Virus record (IMG/VR): IMGVR_UViG_3300045051_000172
Span: 32,001 to 96,000 of that record
Reading direction: 5' to 3' (one strand)
From: a virus
DNA: 64,000 nucleotides
Shown here: positions 11,764-28,677 of the stretch, piece by piece
How positions within the stretch are numbered: position 1 is the stretch's first letter
Layout of the letters: every line of letters begins with the position of its first letter
Position numbers and translations under genes: made by a program
The notes under the pieces: model-generated
Told to the model about the DNA's origin: nothing
Database searches by the model: none
What the model saw: the letters and a program-made list of their open reading frames with translations, nothing else

Positions 11764-14460
11764 ATGGCTTCTAAGAACGCTTTTAAGATATCAAAATATC
11801 TGTCCATGAAACCTCAGGCCTCTGCGCCTTCTTCTCCAAATGATGGAGATGCTTACTACGATTCCGCTTTAGGAAAATTTCGTTTTAGACAAAATTCTGC
11901 TTGGGTTGAAGTCGGTTCCGGCAATGCCGAGAGTGCACTCTTACTCAGCTTGCTTCAATCCAACAATATGGAAGAAGCTGCTTTTTCAAGTTTTAATAAC
12001 GGTGAAGATGACATCATACGTTCGGCTGATGGTCAGAACGTAACTTTAGATTCTGCCAACGGACGATACTCAGCTTCTGCTGCCGGTGAATTTACTTACT
12101 GGGATGGTTACAGAGATCCTACTGCTGGAGCAACTAGCGAGCAATGGACCTCAAATGGTACTGCAACCGGACAATCTGTTGCGAATTCTGGCGGCGAATT
12201 TACAATCACCGATGCTTCAGTTTCAGGACGAAGAGCATATACAAAATCATTTACATCTTTGACGGGCACGGGAGACTGCGTACTCGAAGCCAAAATGAAG
12301 ATCACTTCTGAAACTACCTATGTCACTTACACGGGTTCCGATCAATGGACTGGACTCGGATTTCAAATTCGAGATGGTTCGAGAGACATTAGAGCAAATT
12401 TTATTCGAGAAGGTTCTTCTTCTGGAACAAGAGAATTAGTATTTGGTAATGCTGGATCTACCATCTTGAATGATGCTGATACTGGAGCTGCGCTTAGAAT
12501 TGTAGTAGATTACACTCAATATCACCTTTATCAGTTCTATAAACAAGGCACCAACTTATTGATCTACATTGACGGAGCCTATAAAGGTCGAGTCGCCACT
12601 GGGGGCTTTTCTTCAACTGCCTCTACTGATGTTTTCTGGGGTGGATATACAATTGATACCGCACAATCAGTTAGCGTGTGGCAATATGTGAATTTCAAAT
12701 CTTGGAAATCAATTTTAGCAACTAAGAATCTAAATTATCGCGGAACTGGAGCTTATGAAGGAGACGGTGATCCCGCCGCTGCTACTTCTTCCGGAACCAA
12801 CTTAGCCGGAGCCAATTTATTCTTTTTAGAAGATAACTGGGTTCAATGGACGGCAGATATCTCCGGACCTACTCCATCTACTGTAGTTTTTGGAAGTTCT
12901 AACGTGTCCACTTCAGTGACTCCTCAGTCAGCTCGAAGAATTGTTCTTTCTGGAGCACAGAGAGCTAACTGGTCCAGAACGGTATTTCCTGCGGAAGTAG
13001 TGGACGATGCTTCTTTAAGTTTTCAAGCCAACGTATATTTCGAAGCAATTAACTTCTTAGCTGGAGATTCTTGCTCCGTAATCTTGATGCGAGTTTTCAA
13101 TAAATCAATTCGAGTCATTCTTAAAAGAAGCACCGGATTGGCTTCAAATGTTCTGGAATGTGGTATTGCGGATAGCTCGGATACCTCATTCTTAACCACA
13201 AATGTCACTGGGTCAACGGGCTTTGTGACTGTTGGTGAAAGACATACTTTTGAACTTCGAAGAATTAACGCTAAACGATTTCAATTTCTTTTAGATGGAA
13301 AAGTTCAACAAGAAGTTGCTCAGTCAGATGCTAACTTAACTGCATCTACAGCAAATGATATTTTTTGGGGTAACGTATCGAACCTCAATGCTTCTTCTTC
13401 TATGACTTGGCAATGGGGTCATGTTCGATATACAGTAGGTCCGGATTCAATGCTTCCAAAATCTCCTCATAAAGAGTTTTTGGCTTTGTTAGATTATTCT
13501 GACACTTCCATGCATGTGAGCTTCAGTTCCGATAACGTGACTTGGTCTGTTCCAGTTCCAGTGTCGGATACAGGTGCCTCAGATTTTGTTGGAATAACTG
13601 GGCAACGTGCCGCAGGTTATGTATTTTCTCGATTTCTGTTTAACGCAGGAGGAAGTACCCCCTACTTAAACAACCTAGCGATCCTCTTCAATTCTGCAGC
13701 AGGAGCTGGAGGTTTAAGTAATCTTGCAGTTAAAACCTACACTACGACTGAAATTCCATCCGCTCCAGCTACGGTTACTTTCAACCATGGACTTAGTGTT
13801 TCTGAAGATGAAATTATAGTTTTTGGCGGAACTGAGCACTTAGTTAAAGATTTAGACTGGGCCTATTTATCAAGTGATTCCATTTCAATCATTAACGCAA
13901 ATCCCGGAGTTCCGTATACGGTTCGACGAGTAGGATTTAGCTTTGATCGAAGTTCCAGCAACTCGGATAGATTGGATGATATTGAACAAGTAATTAAAGT
14001 AGTGGCAAAAAGAATCACGTCTACTCAAACTATTACTGCTGGAACTAGCTGGGTAGAGCTTATTTATAACGGAGAGATTGAAGACACTACAAATTCTTAT
14101 GATCCAACAACAGGCAGATTTACTGTCCCAGAGGATGGAACTTACCTAGTTACTTGGGGCATGGATGCTCTCACGGGAGGAACAGTTCCCACTCAGTTAC
14201 AAGGAGCAGTACAAATTAACGGAAACTCAGGACCCGCAATCCCAAATGCCCATGCTCATGATTACATGAACCAAGGTGCTATTGTGGGTACTAACGCTGG
14301 GCGTGTTTTAAAAGGTTCTGCCATTCTTAAATTGAGCAAGAATGACTACATATCTGTTTGGGCCCAATGTACGAGTCAAAACGTATCTATGGATAACTTC
14401 TCAACTGATGTAGGTGCGTCGAGAATTGAAATTCAACGCATCAATCCAAAGAAGAGTTAA
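11764..14460 (+). CDS. Tail fibre/receptor-binding protein (898 aa) with lectin-like middle region and C1q-like C-terminal domain
   Basis: It carries the shared N-terminal fibre motif. The C-terminal 'YDPTTGRFTVPEDGTYLVTW...ILKLSKNDYISVW' fits the C1q/TNF-like fold seen in phage fibres. Confidence 0.7.
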   Translation: MASKNAFKISKYLSMKPQASAPSSPNDGDAYYDSALGKFRFRQNSAWVEVGSGNAESALLLSLLQSNNMEEAAFSSFNNGEDDIIRSADGQNVTLDSANGRYSASAAGEFTYWDGYRDPTAGATSEQWTSNGTATGQSVANSGGEFTITDASVSGRRAYTKSFTSLTGTGDCVLEAKMKITSETTYVTYTGSDQWTGLGFQIRDGSRDIRANFIREGSSSGTRELVFGNAGSTILNDADTGAALRIVVDYTQYHLYQFYKQGTNLLIYIDGAYKGRVATGGFSSTASTDVFWGGYTIDTAQSVSVWQYVNFKSWKSILATKNLNYRGTGAYEGDGDPAAATSSGTNLAGANLFFLEDNWVQWTADISGPTPSTVVFGSSNVSTSVTPQSARRIVLSGAQRANWSRTVFPAEVVDDASLSFQANVYFEAINFLAGDSCSVILMRVFNKSIRVILKRSTGLASNVLECGIADSSDTSFLTTNVTGSTGFVTVGERHTFELRRINAKRFQFLLDGKVQQEVAQSDANLTASTANDIFWGNVSNLNASSSMTWQWGHVRYTVGPDSMLPKSPHKEFLALLDYSDTSMHVSFSSDNVTWSVPVPVSDTGASDFVGITGQRAAGYVFSRFLFNAGGSTPYLNNLAILFNSAAGAGGLSNLAVKTYTTTEIPSAPATVTFNHGLSVSEDEIIVFGGTEHLVKDLDWAYLSSDSISIINANPGVPYTVRRVGFSFDRSSSNSDRLDDIEQVIKVVAKRITSTQTITAGTSWVELIYNGEIEDTTNSYDPTTGRFTVPEDGTYLVTWGMDALTGGTVPTQLQGAVQINGNSGPAIPNAHAHDYMNQGAIVGTNAGRVLKGSAILKLSKNDYISVWAQCTSQNVSMDNFSTDVGASRIEIQRINPKKS

Positions 14461-24298: not shown

Positions 24299-24558
24299 TT
24301 ATCACCCCAATCGGCCCAATAGGACATCCAGTTCTCCTTCACAAACGGCTTATGTCCTCCTGAGTGAATGATGCAATCGCATTTTCTTTCCTTGGCTTCC
24401 TCGTCCGTCGCGATATCCGTGATGTCGTAATTCGCGAACTCGGATTGACCTGTTTTCATTTGACCGTACATTTTCTTGTGTCGCTCTATTTGAGCCAAGC
24501 GTTTCTTCCTCGTCATGGGAGCAACATTAGGCAGAGCCTTAGCTGATAAAACTTTCAT
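24295..24558 (-). CDS. Hypothetical protein
   Basis: 87 aa; ATGA overlaps. Confidence 0.55.
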   Translation of the reverse strand: MKVLSAKALPNVAPMTRKKRLAQIERHKKMYGQMKTGQSEFANYDITDIATDEEAKERKCDCIIHSGGHKPFVKENWMSYWADWGDK

Positions 24559-24965
24559 TCAAATCGTAGTCCTAACTTTCTCAAAATAATGTGCGAATTC
24601 GTGAGAATCAAATTCATCACGTCTTCCTCTAAGTTAGGAGAAATCTTACGATTTTTCGAAATCACTTCTTTTGCCGTGTCCCGAATGGCCTCTAAAATCT
24701 CAACATCACTGAGAATCTTTTTGAGAGGTTCTGCCGGTTTAAGTTCGTAATCAGTCGCCTCGATATATTCGACGGACATAGATTCAATCTGACGATTATC
24801 CCCGTAGGCGATCCAGCGCATCCCATCTTTTTCTATTACTCGAAAGTAAGAGTCGTCACCGGGGCGCTTGAAAGGGACTCCAGTTTTGAGGGCTTCAAGA
24901 AAGGTAAGTCCAGGGCCCGGGCCCTCAGTTATTCCATATTGTGTAAGTTGTCGTCGCATGTGCAT
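24555..24965 (-). CDS. Hypothetical protein
   Basis: 136 aa; strong AAGGAGG RBS. Confidence 0.65.
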   Translation of the reverse strand: MHMRRQLTQYGITEGPGPGLTFLEALKTGVPFKRPGDDSYFRVIEKDGMRWIAYGDNRQIESMSVEYIEATDYELKPAEPLKKILSDVEILEAIRDTAKEVISKNRKISPNLEEDVMNLILTNSHIILRKLGLRFE

Positions 24966-25086
24966 CCTCCTTTATCAATCTTGACTCAACTGATCTAGGA
25001 AGTAAAGAGGGGGTGTCGGAGAGAACTATGCATCTTTTATAGGGGGAGGGGAAAGCTGCGAAAGAATTTCCTCTCCGACTGTTTTC

Positions 25087-25115
25087 AGAATATCAAAACT
25101 TTGACATAAATGCAA
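25087..25115 (-). promoter_or_regulatory. sigma70-type promoter TTGCAT-17-TATTCT with extended -10
   Basis: The predicted start site falls at the 5' arm of a 9-bp stem (25079-25071 / 25023-25015). Confidence 0.5.
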
Positions 25116-25357
25116 TGCGCAAAATAAGGAGAATTCTGCGCAAAATTTGACACAAAATGCGGAAGTTTATGTCATTTACTTCCGAGCAACGGGAAGTTCT
25201 TAAAGTTAACCTTTTGAATAGATTAGGAAATTTGAAAGCCATAGTTATATAATTTACTACACGCAAGATACCCGCCAAATACCCATAATCATTGGGGCTT
25301 TAAGGTATCTCACTCTCTAGCCTTGACCGGGCCTGGTCCCCGTGAGAAAATGAGGGT

Positions 25358-25666
25358 ATGGAACTCGTAATGGAAATCATAGGCTGGATCGGATCGATGG
25401 CCTTCGCAGTGTGCGCCGTTCCTCAGGCTTACGATTCTTGGAAGAAAGGTCACTCGCGAGGAATTACTTGGGGCTTCTATCTTCTTTGGGTCATCGGCGA
25501 AATCTTCACGCTTCTCTATATCATCCCGACTGGCAAAGTTCCCCTCCTCGTAAATTATCTCGTCAATTTGGTTTTCCTCACAATCATCGGATATTACAAA
25601 GCCTACCCACGAAAAAGAACCCGGAAGAGTCACTCTCGCAGATCTCATTTAACTGTGGTGAAATAG
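25358..25666 (+). CDS. PQ-loop (SemiSWEET-like) three-helix membrane protein
   Basis: 'AFAVCAVPQAYDSWKKGHSRGITWGF' has the PQ motif after TM1; three TM helices; GAGG RBS. Confidence 0.75.
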   Translation: MELVMEIIGWIGSMAFAVCAVPQAYDSWKKGHSRGITWGFYLLWVIGEIFTLLYIIPTGKVPLLVNYLVNLVFLTIIGYYKAYPRKRTRKSHSRRSHLTVVK

Positions 25667-25741
25667 GGCCCTACTGAAAGAGTTGCACTTTCGCCTTCGG
25701 AATCCCATAGTATCCGACGTGCCGCTTCACACCGAGTAGGG
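25665..25741 (-). ncRNA. tRNA-like cloverleaf with an 11-nt anticodon loop
   Basis: - strand: acceptor CCCTACT/AGTAGGG, D-stem GTGT/GCAC, anticodon stem TCGGA/TCCGA, 4-nt variable loop, T-stem GAAAG/CTTTC with loop TGCAACT, then C73-C-C-T. Confidence 0.65.
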
Positions 25742-25750
25742 ACTTCCATA

Positions 25751-25780
25751 TTGACATGAAGAGGTCTCAGACGTTATTCT
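25751..25780 (+). promoter_or_regulatory. sigma70-type promoter TTGACA-18-TATTCT
   Basis: It lies 10 nt upstream of ATG 25791. Confidence 0.55.
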
Positions 25781-25790
25781 AAAGGCATCC

Positions 25791-26492
25791 ATGCGCATCA
25801 TAAGTAACTTCAAAGATTTCTATGACGGTATCAGTCATCAGTATTTAGATAAAGAAATCCTATACTTGCGCAGCAGTGTCGAAGAATCGCCGGAGCGCGC
25901 GAAGGTTCCCGAAGTGAGCAAGTTCGAAATCATCGACTCTCCGAATAATGTGACTTATTTCTTCAGCTTAGAGCTTCTCGGATTCTGCGGAAAGATCTAC
26001 CCCATGGCCGTTGTGCGCACGACAGGGATCGAATATAAGCCCACAGAGTTCAATCAATACTCCCAAGGATTCTTCAGCTACGACAAGCTCGTCGATTTCG
26101 TGAACCTCAAAAAGATTCCCATCAAAGAGGGTCGCCGATATCGCTGGTTCAACTTTTCCTACCAAGATAGTTTGGCGGATATCGCTCGCTTTTTCGAAAC
26201 TACTACTGATTACAATAAGTTAGATAAGGTCTTTCAAAGACTCAATACGCCGGTATTCGTCCTGCGCGAGACGGGCCGCCGCGAGCGAAAGCTGATTACG
26301 AATCCCATGCTTAAGAACTTCTCGTTCCAAAAGTTTAAGGACCCGTTCACGACGCACCAAGAACTTTTCATGTATGTGGGAGGAATCCTCCGACAGCCGG
26401 ATCGGGAAATGGTCAAGCTTACAGATAAACAAAAACTTGAAAAGAGAGGCTTCGACAAATGGAGCTTCAGAAAACCCCCGGAGGGAAAATGA
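25791..26492 (+). CDS. Hypothetical protein (233 aa)
   Basis: Long ORF downstream of a promoter; no motif recognised. Confidence 0.7.
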   Translation: MRIISNFKDFYDGISHQYLDKEILYLRSSVEESPERAKVPEVSKFEIIDSPNNVTYFFSLELLGFCGKIYPMAVVRTTGIEYKPTEFNQYSQGFFSYDKLVDFVNLKKIPIKEGRRYRWFNFSYQDSLADIARFFETTTDYNKLDKVFQRLNTPVFVLRETGRRERKLITNPMLKNFSFQKFKDPFTTHQELFMYVGGILRQPDREMVKLTDKQKLEKRGFDKWSFRKPPEGK

Positions 26493-26680
26493 ATCGACTC
26501 ATAATGCACCTGATCGGATTAGCCTTAATTCCTTTGATTTTAGCGATCTCAGTTCTGGCTGCGGGACTTGCTTTAGTCCTCGGAGTTTTTGTTAGTTTGG
26601 CCTTGCTAGTTGTGCCCGGACAAGTTAAATTCAATGGAGAGAAACTCAGCAGCATTCTACGAAAGGTAAAACGAGCATGA
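26489..26680 (+). CDS. Small membrane protein (start moved to ATG 26489)
   Basis: GGAGG RBS, long hydrophobic segment, ATGA overlaps. Confidence 0.55.
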   Translation: MNRLIMHLIGLALIPLILAISVLAAGLALVLGVFVSLALLVVPGQVKFNGEKLSSILRKVKRA

Positions 26681-26967
26681 AAATCAGTCCTCAGCAATTT
26701 GTTCAAAATTTACGAAATGGTGGCCTAAATGCCCAGGCTTCTTTGACTTTAGCGGAAGCTTCTTTAAAGAGCGTTACCGGCGGAAAGCAAGGCTGGACCT
26801 ATGCTGATCTTCCGAACTACCTTCAACTTGCTCAGGATTCTCACTATTCAGACTCGATGCGAAAACAGCTTATTCAAATGGAACGTGATAAGCCAAAACA
26901 GCTTGCCAAACTTCAAGGTTTCTATTCTCAAGTTGTTGGCATTTTGAAGAAACAAGTCAAAGCATAA
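26677..26967 (+). CDS. Hypothetical protein
   Basis: 96 aa; ATGA overlap. Confidence 0.55.
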   Translation: MKISPQQFVQNLRNGGLNAQASLTLAEASLKSVTGGKQGWTYADLPNYLQLAQDSHYSDSMRKQLIQMERDKPKQLAKLQGFYSQVVGILKKQVKA

Positions 26968-26968
26968 T

Positions 26969-26997
26969 TTGACAATTTGCCCTGTTCCCGATACATT
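26969..26997 (+). promoter_or_regulatory. sigma70-type promoter TTGACA-17-TACATT for groEL
   Basis: It is followed by the AGGGAG RBS and ATG 27010. Confidence 0.65.
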
Positions 26998-27009
26998 TTA
27001 GGGAGACTT

Positions 27010-28677
27010 ATGACTTTAAATCCAAAGAAAATTGCTCAAAAAAACGAGATGGCCGACAAAATGAAAGTTGGCATTTCCCTCGTTGCTTCCATCGTTAAAC
27101 GTACTTTAGGGCCCGGAGGTCTTCCGATCCTAATCGAACGAAATGGACAGAACTTAGAAGGTGATCCTCTTGAGCCCATGATTACGAAAGACGGAGTCAC
27201 CGTCGCAAACGAATGTGCCTCAGACGACCCCGAAGTTGATCTCACTATTCAAACCGTCAAAGCAATTTGTAAGAAAACAAATCGAATCGCTGGAGATGGA
27301 ACTACGACCGCGATTGTTTTAGGTGAGGCTTTATATCTTGAAACTCTCAAAGAGCTGGATGCTGATTCAAATTTGAATCCTCAGATTGTTCGAGAAGAAT
27401 TAGAATTGGCAATCAAAGACGTAGTGGCTGAACTTGAAAAAGTTGCAGTACCTGTAAAAGATTTCGCACGCATTGAACAAGTTGCAAACATTTCTGCAAA
27501 CGGTGAAAAAGAAATCGGCTCAGTAATTCGGGCCGCTTTCGAACACGTTGGAGCTGAAGGCGTCGTCACTATCGATGAAGGTTCCTCAATTGAAACCACG
27601 ATTGATCGAGTTGAAGGTTTTCAATTTGCTCGCGGAGCCGAATCTCAAGATCGTTTTTTCAATAACAAAGAGAGAACTAAGTTCGAAGCCAAAGATGCTT
27701 TGGTAATTATCTATGACGGCAAGATCGACCACAATGGAAAACTGGTCGCGGTCATGAATACGATTTCAAAAGAATTCGCAACTGCCGGAGGCGGCATCGG
27801 AGCCTTCCCGCCAATTTTAATCATTGCGAATGATTTCAGTTTAGATACTCTTCAACTCCTTCTAATCAATAAAGCCGAATCAGGATTAAATTTCTGTGCG
27901 GTTCGAAGTCCCAACACGACTACGATTCGTTCCTTGATGCTTGACGATCTGGCGGTATATCTCGGCGGAACCAAGCTGGGCAATGGAGGCAAAGACCTTC
28001 AATCAGCCGAATTTAAGATTTCCAAGGACCAAAACGGAAAGATGGTTTTTACGGGCGACATCGGATTTGTCTCTTCAGTTATTGTGGATCGCTACAATAC
28101 AACCCTATTCGGAGGCGGAGGAACTGAACAAGCCGTCACTGAAAGAGTAGACCAATTGAATGCCTCCAAAGAAGCCGCCTTCAGTGAATACGACCGCTCG
28201 ATGATTAATGATCGAGTTGCTTCCCTCACAGGTGGAATCGCCAAGATTGGCGTAGGTGGACGGACAGAGTTAGAAATCAAAGAAAAATATCATCGCATTG
28301 AAGATGCCTTGAATGCTTCCCGAGCCGCCATTGAAGCCGGAGTTATCCCAGGAGGAGGCGCGGCCCTTTTCCGAATTGCCGATCAATTGAGTAAGTCCGA
28401 CACTGTTGGCCATAGAATTCTTTCGAAGGCTCTCAAGTCTCCCATATTCCAAATCTTGGATAATATCGGGATCGCTCATGAGAGTCTAAATTTAGATCAG
28501 CTTAAATCTGATCCTACTTTAATTTTCGATGCCCGCAACAAAAAGTTTGTTGATGCATTTGAGGCCGGAATTATCGATCCCTTAAAAGTAACCGTAACTG
28601 CACTTGAGAATGCCGCATCCATTGCCGGACTTCTTTCGACTTGCGGCGGCGGGATTACTTATCTGAGAAAGGTTTAA
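27010..28677 (+). CDS. groL: Phage-encoded group I chaperonin GroEL (start moved to ATG 27010)
   Basis: 'TLGP', 'ITKDGVTVA', 'AGDGTTTAIVL', 'KEKYHRIEDALNASRAAIEAGVIPGGG' and 'GIIDPLKV' are all present; there is no C-terminal GGM tail. Confidence 0.93.
   Translation: MTLNPKKIAQKNEMADKMKVGISLVASIVKRTLGPGGLPILIERNGQNLEGDPLEPMITKDGVTVANECASDDPEVDLTIQTVKAICKKTNRIAGDGTTTAIVLGEALYLETLKELDADSNLNPQIVREELELAIKDVVAELEKVAVPVKDFARIEQVANISANGEKEIGSVIRAAFEHVGAEGVVTIDEGSSIETTIDRVEGFQFARGAESQDRFFNNKERTKFEAKDALVIIYDGKIDHNGKLVAVMNTISKEFATAGGGIGAFPPILIIANDFSLDTLQLLLINKAESGLNFCAVRSPNTTTIRSLMLDDLAVYLGGTKLGNGGKDLQSAEFKISKDQNGKMVFTGDIGFVSSVIVDRYNTTLFGGGGTEQAVTERVDQLNASKEAAFSEYDRSMINDRVASLTGGIAKIGVGGRTELEIKEKYHRIEDALNASRAAIEAGVIPGGGAALFRIADQLSKSDTVGHRILSKALKSPIFQILDNIGIAHESLNLDQLKSDPTLIFDARNKKFVDAFEAGIIDPLKVTVTALENAASIAGLLSTCGGGITYLRKV

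What the first reader, a model, noticed from the sequence alone, without database searches (positions are those of the whole stretch)
25665..25741. Second tRNA-like cloverleaf with an expanded 11-nt anticodon loop, hidden on the minus strand
Seen: the - strand reads CCCTACT CG GTGT GAAGCG GCAC G TCGGA TACTATGGGAT TCCGA AGGC GAAAG TGCAACT CTTTC AGTAGGG C CCT. The stems are fully paired at 7/4/5/5 bp in correct tRNA order with a 7-nt T-loop. However, position 8 is C, the D-loop lacks GG, the T-loop is TGCAACT, the anticodon loop is 11 nt (centre CT-ATG-GG) and the end is C73-CCT. C73 is the tRNA-His discriminator and an ATG anticodon would read His, but the loop size precludes normal decoding. 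Established: host anticodon nucleases (PrrC, RloC, VapC, PARIS AriB, retron-PtuAB) attack tRNAs, and phages counter with variant tRNAs. Inference: it could be a decoy or sponge for an anticodon nuclease, synthetase or modifying enzyme, a tRNA with a tiny intron, or a frameshifting tRNA. Standard tRNA finders may miss it.
Basis: partly seen in the sequence, partly recalled or inferred. Interest (0 to 1): 0.7.

Follow-up and report, generated by a model that had tools for sequence, protein, structure and literature searches.

The report
Conserved phage tRNA look-alike, oversized anticodon loop
A 119-kb soil phage with no ordinary tRNA genes keeps one strongly conserved tRNA-shaped RNA gene whose anticodon loop has grown to 11-12 bases, so it most likely acts as a tRNA mimic rather than a decoder; what it binds is unknown.

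Summary
The cloverleaf is at exactly the stated coordinates (window 25665-25741, minus strand). On its own it is at chance level: ARAGORN and Rfam tRNA miss it, its folding energy equals that of shuffles, and relaxed ARAGORN finds as many such hits in shuffled genomes.

Comparison with relatives shows it is real. Four related phage contigs carry an orthologue at the same place, on the strand opposite the neighbouring phrog_4243 gene. The closest relative is 96% identical in the element, against 55-60% at synonymous codon positions. Three arms are kept through compensatory changes and the D stem never varies. Two orthologues have a canonical T loop, and ARAGORN calls two as tRNA at default settings. 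Two have a normal 7-base anticodon loop, while the window's lineage has 11-12 bases.

Best reading (0.6): a tRNA-derived, non-decoding small RNA gene under purifying selection, probably a tRNA mimic. Its partner, its role and its minus-strand transcription are not shown. The tiny-intron, frameshift, terminator and attP readings are unlikely.

Separately, phrog_4243 homologues sit just downstream of tRNA arrays in 43% of 123 other phage loci. This scan has noted other phage tRNA look-alikes with enlarged loops, none on this DNA.

The parts
25665..25741 (-). tRNA-derived cloverleaf RNA gene (77 nt including the C73-CCU tail), with 7/4/5/5-bp arms, a 6-nt D loop, an 11-nt anticodon loop, a 4-nt variable region AGGC and T loop UGCAACU
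   Evidence: Sequence. Covariation. RNAalifold. Models R1 and R2 find orthologues in L013, L018, L015 and L016. The element is 96% identical to L013 against 55-60% at synonymous sites.
25702..25712 (-). Expanded anticodon loop UACUAUGGGAU (11 nt). L018 has UACUUUAGGGAA (12 nt). L015 and L016 have 7-nt loops, AGUGCAA and CGUGCAA.
25748..25756 (-). TGTCAATAT, a candidate TG-extended -10 box ending 6 nt before the RNA's first base. GTCAAkAT is invariant in all five orthologous loci. The same bases read on the plus strand are the TTGACA -35 box of the phrog_4243 promoter.
   Evidence: The tool's sigma-70 scan does not call a minus-strand promoter here, so this part is inference.
25751..25780 (+). 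Sigma-70-like promoter TTGACA-N18-TATTCT of the rightward phrog_4243/GroEL/replication module, overlapping the candidate leftward -10 box
   Evidence: 10 of 12 matches
25358..25666 (+). PQ-loop membrane protein gene. Its TAG stop overlaps the last two bases of the RNA's tail on the other strand.
   Evidence: Pfam PF04193, E 1.5e-10
25791..26492 (+). phrog_4243 protein gene, function unknown, divergent neighbour of the RNA gene in all five loci
   Evidence: PHROG hit E 2e-25; homologues; weak ATP-grasp-like fold, Z 5.0-5.5

Best explanation
The stretch is a gene for a tRNA-derived, cloverleaf-shaped small RNA read from the minus strand. It is the only tRNA-like gene in this 119-kb rhizosphere phage. 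It descends from a phage tRNA gene: related phages have orthologues with a 7-nt anticodon loop and a canonical T loop. In the window's lineage the anticodon loop grew to 11-12 nt, and position 8, the D loop and T-loop position 55 are non-canonical. Even so, the four-arm fold and most unpaired bases are under strong purifying selection. I infer three steps. It is transcribed leftward from a TG-extended -10 box that overlaps, back to back, the rightward promoter of the phrog_4243/GroEL/replication module. It folds into a tRNA-like L-shape. It works not as a decoder but as a tRNA mimic that occupies a tRNA-recognising protein, either a host tRNA-targeting nuclease or modification/processing enzyme, or the phage's own neighbour phrog_4243. 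Shown here: the structure, its conservation, its tRNA ancestry and its strand-specific sequence signature. Inferred: transcription, processing, non-decoding behaviour and the partner.
For: (1) Purifying selection. The element is 74/77 identical to L013, while synonymous third positions of both flanking genes are 0.55-0.60 identical. It is 60/82 identical to L018, where synonymous sites are at 0.42-0.49. (2) Covariation. In a structure-blind alignment all 63 pair cells are paired and 6 pairs change on both sides (3 acceptor, 2 anticodon stem, 1 T stem), with 0 in slid controls. With five members, 98% of cells are paired and 11 pairs change on both sides (this alignment is fitted to the model). 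RNAalifold finds the same helices unaided. (3) tRNA ancestry and strand. ARAGORN at default calls L016:1923-1998(-) as tRNA-Ala(tgc) and L018:366-446(-) as a tRNA with an odd loop. L016 and L018 have GG-UUCAAyU-CC T arms on the minus strand. The family model R2 picks up ordinary tRNAs in other phages. The six G.U cells on the minus strand would be A.C mismatches on the plus strand. (4) Non-decoding. The loop is 11 nt (window, L013) or 12 nt (L018). The window has C8, no G18G19 and G55, and RF00005 gives no score at E<=10. (5) Conserved position. It is always divergent and directly upstream of phrog_4243, even where that protein is only 36-51% identical. GTCAAkAT is invariant 6-7 nt before the 5' end. 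(6) It is the only tRNA-like gene in the genome.
Against: There is no RNA evidence at all. The sigma-70 scan calls no minus-strand promoter in any of the five loci; CAAGAT and CAATAT match only 3 of 6 in the -10 hexamer. The invariant GTCAA could be conserved solely as the plus-strand -35 box. Only five members are known, three of them close, so covariation statistics are thin. Plus- and minus-strand consensus folds have similar energies, -25.9 against -27.4 kcal/mol. No partner protein is identified, and the phage lacks a CCA-adding enzyme, PTH2 and RtcB. The isotype of origin cannot be resolved.
Confidence: 0.6

Rival explanations
1. The functional strand is the plus strand, or the element acts as DNA. 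It would be a multi-hairpin 3'-end structure of the PQ-loop mRNA (stabiliser, processing site or terminator), or an operator or origin-like DNA element at the head of the replication module.
For: It starts at the PQ-loop stop codon and lies between two plus-strand genes. The plus strand folds nearly as well. The only promoters the scan calls are on the plus strand. It sits where leftward and rightward gene blocks diverge, just ahead of the replication genes.
Against: No U-tract terminator is present. L015 and L016 keep the element without a PQ-loop gene upstream. On the plus strand the D-arm helix is lost and L018 gains an A.C mismatch. The canonical T-loop sequence and the ARAGORN calls are on the minus strand only. 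Compensatory changes that include G.U point to RNA, not to a protein-binding DNA site.
Confidence: 0.12
2. It is a decaying pseudo-tRNA, a relic of the tRNA array that usually precedes phrog_4243, with no function of its own.
For: It lacks U8, G18G19 and Psi55, has no 7-nt loop, is missed by all tRNA finders, and the phage has lost all other tRNAs.
Against: It is 96% identical to L013 where synonymous sites are only 55-60% identical, and two of the three differences form one compensatory pair. All stems are kept in L018 through six double changes.
Confidence: 0.08
3. It is a tRNA-like 5' module of a leftward transcript. RNase P or RNase Z cutting at the cloverleaf would shape an antisense RNA across the PQ-loop gene or the leader of the leftward operon, as in tRNA-mRNA co-transcripts or MALAT1-mascRNA.
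For: Nothing terminator-like follows the element on the minus strand until 25142-25116, so a leftward transcript would cross the PQ-loop gene in antisense. In L014 the same promoter-like motif precedes a called minus-strand ORF with a structured leader. L016 has further structured RNA downstream on the same strand.
Against: This would not explain conservation of the loops and the anticodon arm. L015 and L016 have no PQ-loop gene downstream. There are no RNA data.
Confidence: 0.1
4. It is a working decoder: a frameshift, bypass or suppressor tRNA, or a tRNA with a tiny intron that is removed to restore a 7-nt loop.
For: The window loop contains CUA and the L018 loop contains UUA, which are anticodons of stop codons. 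Phage tRNAs with 8-9-nt loops are known from earlier notes of this scan.
Against: The loop is 11 nt in one orthologue and 12 nt in another. The candidate triplets sit at different loop positions. There is no bulge-helix-bulge. The window has C8, G55 and no G18G19. No complementary site is conserved nearby.
Confidence: 0.05

Closest known systems
Canonical bacterial and phage elongator tRNA (Rfam RF00005)
   Same: A cloverleaf with 7/4/5/5-bp arms in tRNA order, a 7-nt T loop with the U54-A58 and C56 positions kept, a 4-nt variable region, and homology to real tRNAs (model R2 finds tRNAs).
   Different: An 11-12-nt anticodon loop without the U33 context, C8, a 6-nt D loop without GG, and G at position 55. 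RF00005 gives no score and ARAGORN at default does not call it.
Phage tRNAs that escape or neutralise tRNA-targeting defences (van den Berg et al. 2023, PMC10264068; Azam et al. 2024, PMC11555353)
   Same: A phage-encoded tRNA-shaped RNA whose anticodon loop differs from normal tRNAs. A decoy or replacement role is conceivable.
   Different: Those are working, chargeable tRNAs with 7-nt loops carrying point substitutions. This RNA has a loop size incompatible with decoding, and no link to a defence system was tested.
Non-proteinogenic tRNA-Gly of Staphylococcus for cell-wall synthesis (reviewed in PMC4052509)
   Same: tRNAs diverted from translation, with G18G19 replaced and weak EF-Tu T-stem pairs such as A51-U63. 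The window's T stem also has A51-U63 and its D loop has no GG.
   Different: Those keep a normal anticodon loop and are aminoacylated by GlyRS. Charging of this RNA is unknown.
Candidate tRNA-like structured RNAs catalogued in IMG/VR phages (PMC10690425) and tRNA-like domains such as mascRNA, YrlA and the tmRNA TLD
   Same: Conserved tRNA-shaped RNAs of unknown role in phage genomes, only sometimes overlapping ARAGORN calls.
   Different: No Rfam family matches the window element. I could not check whether this motif is in that catalogue. It keeps a full anticodon arm, unlike the tmRNA TLD.
Laboratory and natural frameshift-suppressor tRNAs with 8-9-nt anticodon loops (sufD, sufJ and similar; from my own knowledge and the earlier notes)
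   Same: An enlarged anticodon loop on an otherwise tRNA-like body.
   Different: The loop is 4-5 nt larger than normal, not 1-2, and its length is not fixed between orthologues.

Membership tests
Canonical tRNA (RF00005) | Cloverleaf with 7-bp acceptor, 3-4-bp D, 5-bp anticodon and 5-bp T stems | tested here: met
Canonical tRNA (RF00005) | 7-nt anticodon loop with U33 and a purine at 37 | tested here: not met
   11 nt in the window and L013, 12 nt in L018. L015 and L016 have 7 nt but G33.
Canonical tRNA (RF00005) | T loop U54-U55-C56-R57-A58 and D-loop G18G19, which form the elbow | tested here: not met
   The window has UGCAACU (G55) and D loop GAAGCG. The T loop is canonical only in L016 and L018.
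Canonical tRNA (RF00005) | Scores above the family threshold in a covariance model or a tRNA finder | tested here: not met
   No RF00005 hit at E<=10. ARAGORN finds it only at -ps84, which is the noise level.
Frameshift-suppressor tRNA | Anticodon loop enlarged by 1-2 nt that pairs with a 4-5-base codon; otherwise chargeable | tested here: not met
   The loop is 4-5 nt larger and differs in length between orthologues. No conserved complementary site lies nearby. Charging cannot be tested here.
Intrinsic terminator of the PQ-loop gene | GC-rich hairpin followed by a U tract on the transcribed strand | tested here: not met
   The scan of 24900-25900 finds none at the element. ACTTCCATA follows the outer stem.
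Phage attP core within a tRNA gene | An integrase in the genome and identity to the 3' half of a host tRNA | tested here: not met
   No PF00589 or PF00239 match in the genome. A family pattern found no true copy in 185,579 prokaryote genomes; the 6 hits were chance matches.
Anti-defence decoy tRNA | Binds or is cut by a host tRNA-targeting nuclease and rescues infection | not testable with these tools
   Host unknown; no RNA or defence data

The most novel reading that the evidence does not exclude
The remodelled tRNA look-alike and its divergent neighbour phrog_4243 form an undescribed RNA-protein module. phrog_4243 is a widespread phage protein of unknown function and possibly ATP-grasp-like fold. 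In 43% of 123 other phage loci it sits right after a tRNA array. Under this reading it acts on tRNA-shaped RNAs, and this phage lineage, having lost all decoding tRNAs, keeps one dedicated non-decoding RNA as its substrate, cofactor or regulator.
Probability: 0.15. Interest if true: 0.75.

Novelty: new variant of a known kind. Interest (0 to 1): 0.5.

Why it matters
Phage tRNA genes are usually explained by codon supply or, more recently, by escape from tRNA-cleaving defences. Here a phage has kept one tRNA-shaped RNA that cannot plausibly decode, and it has preserved that RNA more tightly than its neighbouring proteins. That points to a tRNA-mimic function outside translation. The same locus also flags phrog_4243, a common phage protein of unknown function, as strongly tied to tRNA arrays. 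Both observations can be tested directly by expression, pull-down and in vitro tRNA-enzyme assays.

Tried and rejected
Searches for relatives that found nothing:
- blastn of 24500-27500 against 50,697 GenBank phages gave no match.
- A first loose DNA pattern in IMG/VR gave 3 chance hits.
- Two family-specific patterns in IMG/VR gave 0 hits.
- The same pattern in prokaryote genomes gave 6 chance hits, none a cloverleaf and none a tRNA.
- A search for truncated phrog_4243 homologues found none.
- GroEL-based relatives L006-L012, and the complete 114-kb relative G001, have no R2 match.

Expression: no RNA holder is listed among the sequencing runs, and read laying on three rhizosphere DNA runs laid nothing. 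Expression is therefore untested.

Repeats and targets:
- No other copy or repeat of the element exists in the genome.
- The motif GTCAAkAT is not enriched in the window: 5 found, 4.97 expected.
- No nearby site complementary to the big loop is shared by the window and L018.

Origin and neighbour:
- Isotype of origin is unresolved. The best pairwise matches are spread over Gly, Ala, Trp, Arg and Gln tRNAs, so I dropped 'derived from tRNA-Ala(UGC)', which rests only on ARAGORN's anticodon label.
- phrog_4243 function: Foldseek against PDB gave nothing at E<=0.001. VIA-align gave only Z about 5 ATP-grasp rows. The ESM Atlas gave nothing usable.

Other:
- No CCA-adding enzyme, PTH2 or RtcB is encoded in the genome.
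- Two extra pairs inside the big loop (C-G and U.G) are predicted by RNAalifold but never vary, so they are unsupported.

Full report
WHAT IS THERE

The window is bases 32001-96000 of a 119,478-bp IMG/VR virus record rated complete. The only DNA runs that hold it are rhizosphere metagenomes. It has a 7-bp acceptor stem, C8 G9, a 4-pair D stem (three Watson-Crick pairs plus one U.G) and a 6-nt D loop GAAGCG. Then come G26, a 5-bp anticodon stem, an 11-nt loop UACUAUGGGAU, the variable region AGGC, and a 5-bp T stem with loop UGCAACU. It ends with C73 followed by CCU.

The real flanking genes are both on the plus strand. One is a PQ-loop membrane protein gene at 25358-25666 (Pfam PF04193, E 1.5e-10). 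The other is a phrog_4243 gene at 25791-26492. The latter heads a rightward block with GroEL, dUTPase, primase-helicase, family-A DNA polymerase, a RecA-like protein and an SbcCD-like pair. The element therefore lies antisense in a 124-nt gap, and its tail overlaps the PQ-loop stop codon by two bases.

IS IT MORE THAN CHANCE?

As a single sequence, no.
- Its folding energy equals that of shuffles, with z = 0.08 on the minus strand and -0.95 on the plus strand.
- ARAGORN at default finds no tRNA in the window or in the whole genome.
- The element appears only when ARAGORN's threshold is lowered to 84%. At that setting the genome yields 13 hits and 30 dinucleotide-preserving shuffles average 16.4.
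- Rfam finds nothing at gathering thresholds. The tRNA model RF00005 gives no match even at E<=10.

COMPARATIVE EVIDENCE

I reached relatives through the two flanking proteins and fetched their contigs.

L013 carries a phrog_4243 protein that is 85% identical. In L013 the element differs at 3 of 77 positions, and two of those differences form one compensatory A-U to G-C change in the acceptor stem. Synonymous third positions of the two flanking genes are only 0.55-0.60 identical. The element is thus far better conserved than neutral sites, and better than first and second codon positions too.

L018 carries a PQ-loop protein that is 75% identical, and its synonymous sites are saturated at 0.42-0.49. 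There the element sits in the same 123-nt gap and is 73% identical. Every stem is kept through double changes: three in the acceptor stem, two in the anticodon stem and one in the T stem. There is also one G-C to G.U change. In the structure-blind MAFFT alignment all 63 pair cells are standard pairs, 6 pairs change on both sides, and partners slid by 1-3 columns give none. RNAalifold predicts the same four helices without being told.

A covariance model built from these three sequences found two more members. They are L015:633-725 and L016:1913-2005, at E about 1e-5. Both are again on the strand opposite to phrog_4243 and just upstream of it; in L016 an inserted endonuclease VII gene lies between. 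With five members, 98% of cells are paired and 11 of 21 pairs change on both sides. That alignment is fitted to the model, so it leans towards the structure. The D stem GUGU/GCAC never varies, so it is neither supported nor contradicted by covariation.

IT IS tRNA-DERIVED, AND THE MINUS STRAND IS THE SENSE STRAND

- ARAGORN at default calls the L016 orthologue tRNA-Ala(tgc) and the L018 orthologue a tRNA with an abnormal anticodon loop. It calls L015 at a 90% threshold.
- L016 and L018 have the canonical T arm GG-UUCAAyU-CC. The window, L013 and L015 have G at position 55.
- L015 and L016 have ordinary 7-nt anticodon loops (AGUGCAA, CGUGCAA). The window and L013 have 11 nt, and L018 has 12 nt (UACUUUAGGGAA) with the same UACU..GGGA frame.
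- The five-member model R2 picks up dozens of ordinary tRNAs in other phages.
- On the plus strand the six G.U cells become A.C mismatches and the D helix is not predicted. The consensus energies of the two strands are close, at -27.4 and -25.9 kcal/mol.
- I could not resolve which isotype it came from. The 'Ala' label reflects only the triplet in the L016 loop.

HOW IT PROBABLY WORKS

Shown: this is a structurally constrained, tRNA-derived element, unique in its genome. Its anticodon loop is too large, and too variable in length, to decode.

Inferred: it is transcribed leftward. GTCAAkAT is invariant 6-7 nt before the 5' end in all five loci. In L014, L015 and L016 it forms TTGACA-N17-CAAGAT on the minus strand. 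In the window, L013 and L018 the -35 box is poor, but a TG dinucleotide sits in the extended -10 position. The same bases read rightward are the -35 box of the phrog_4243 promoter, so the two promoters would overlap back to back.

This part is weak. The consensus scan calls no minus-strand promoter in any locus, and no RNA data exist.

Given the conserved loops and the tRNA-like body, I take the RNA to be a non-decoding tRNA mimic that engages a tRNA-recognising protein. Candidates are host tRNA-targeting nucleases or tRNA-processing and modification enzymes, as in the anti-defence tRNAs of PMC10264068 and PMC11555353, or the neighbour phrog_4243. None of these was testable here.

RIVALS

- A decaying pseudogene is contradicted by the level of constraint.
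- A plus-strand mRNA or DNA element is disfavoured by the strand-specific tRNA signature, by the absence of a U tract, and by L015 and L016 keeping the element without a PQ-loop gene.
- A decoding or intron-containing tRNA is disfavoured by the loop sizes and the missing tertiary-pair bases.
- attP is disfavoured because the genome has no integrase or resolvase.
- A role as a processing module for a leftward antisense transcript cannot be excluded.

CONTEXT WORTH NOTING

I fetched 160 further phrog_4243 loci from metagenomes and IMG/VR.
- 67 of the 160 have at least one ARAGORN tRNA within 1.5 kb.
- tRNA density is 0.70 per kb upstream against 0.13 per kb downstream.
- 53 of the 123 loci with at least 1 kb of upstream sequence have a tRNA there.
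- Nearly all of these tRNAs are on the same strand as phrog_4243. Trp(CCA), Leu and Ala(UGC) are the most frequent.

phrog_4243 is therefore typically the first protein gene after a tRNA array. In the window's lineage that position is held by the single inverted, remodelled tRNA look-alike.

The AlphaFold model of phrog_4243 (pLDDT 80) gives only weak but consistent ATP-grasp rows, at Z 5.0-5.5. This is a hint, not an assignment.

NOVELTY

tRNA-like RNAs in phages are known as a class (PMC10690425). Earlier notes of this scan describe other phage tRNA look-alikes with enlarged or closed anticodon loops on other genomes; I have not checked those notes. This family found no further members in IMG/VR or in prokaryote genomes with two specific patterns. 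I rate it a new variant of a known kind, with moderate interest.

Noticed in passing
L021-L180 (160 loci around phrog_4243 homologues): phrog_4243 genes sit at the downstream end of tRNA arrays. There are 138 tRNAs in 196 kb upstream against 26 in 203 kb downstream, almost all on the same strand. Trp(CCA) 44, Leu 31, Ala(UGC) 16 and Gln 14 are the most frequent, and the nearest tRNA is often 14-200 nt before the start codon.
   Followed up: partly
L084:1198-1281, L027:412-497, L122:379-452, L032:565-637: Some of those neighbouring tRNAs are odd. There are 84-86-nt Trp(CCA) tRNAs with a long extra arm, and tRNAs that ARAGORN folds with 6-nt anticodon loops.
   Followed up: partly
window 25791-26492 (+): The AlphaFold model of the phrog_4243 protein (pLDDT 80, pTM 0.74) gives only weak but consistent ATP-grasp rows (D-Ala-D-Ala ligase, RimK, LysX, glutathione synthetase; Z 5.0-5.5). 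Pfam gives no hit.
   Followed up: partly
L016:1698-1767 (-) and L016:1594-1913; L015:334-632: Downstream of the orthologous RNA on the same strand, L016 has a second tRNA-like element. It has a canonical T arm and a short hairpin with a 4-nt loop, and it hits mascRNA weakly at 23 bits. It lies inside about 350 nt of non-coding, well-folding sequence. L015 also has about 300 nt of non-coding sequence there.
   Followed up: partly
L014:2945-2995, L015:725-765, L016:2005-2045: There is a near-palindromic promoter arrangement, TTGACw-N17-wGTCAA, in which the -35 box of each divergent promoter overlaps the -10 region of the other. In L014 the leftward arm precedes a called 177-aa ORF instead of the tRNA-like gene.
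   Followed up: partly
window 26677-26967 (+): A 96-aa ORF with no Pfam or PHROG hit lies directly upstream of the phage GroEL gene (26977-28677). Its size and position are those of a co-chaperonin.
   Followed up: no
window 13583-13659 (+): Relaxed ARAGORN (-ps80) also labels this stretch tRNA-His(atg). It lies inside the 898-aa ORF 11764-14460 and is one of 68 noise-level hits. The family model R2 does not match it.
   Followed up: partly
window 24966-25357: A non-coding gap of about 390 nt lies between the leftward and rightward gene blocks. It holds a terminator-like hairpin on the minus strand (25142-25116) and a promoter-like site for the PQ-loop gene (25323-25351, +).
   Followed up: no
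L018 versus window: The locus is a mosaic. In L018 the PQ-loop protein is 75% identical and the RNA 73% identical to the window's, but the adjacent phrog_4243 protein is only 36% identical. That is less than in L015 (51%), whose RNA is more distant.
   Followed up: partly
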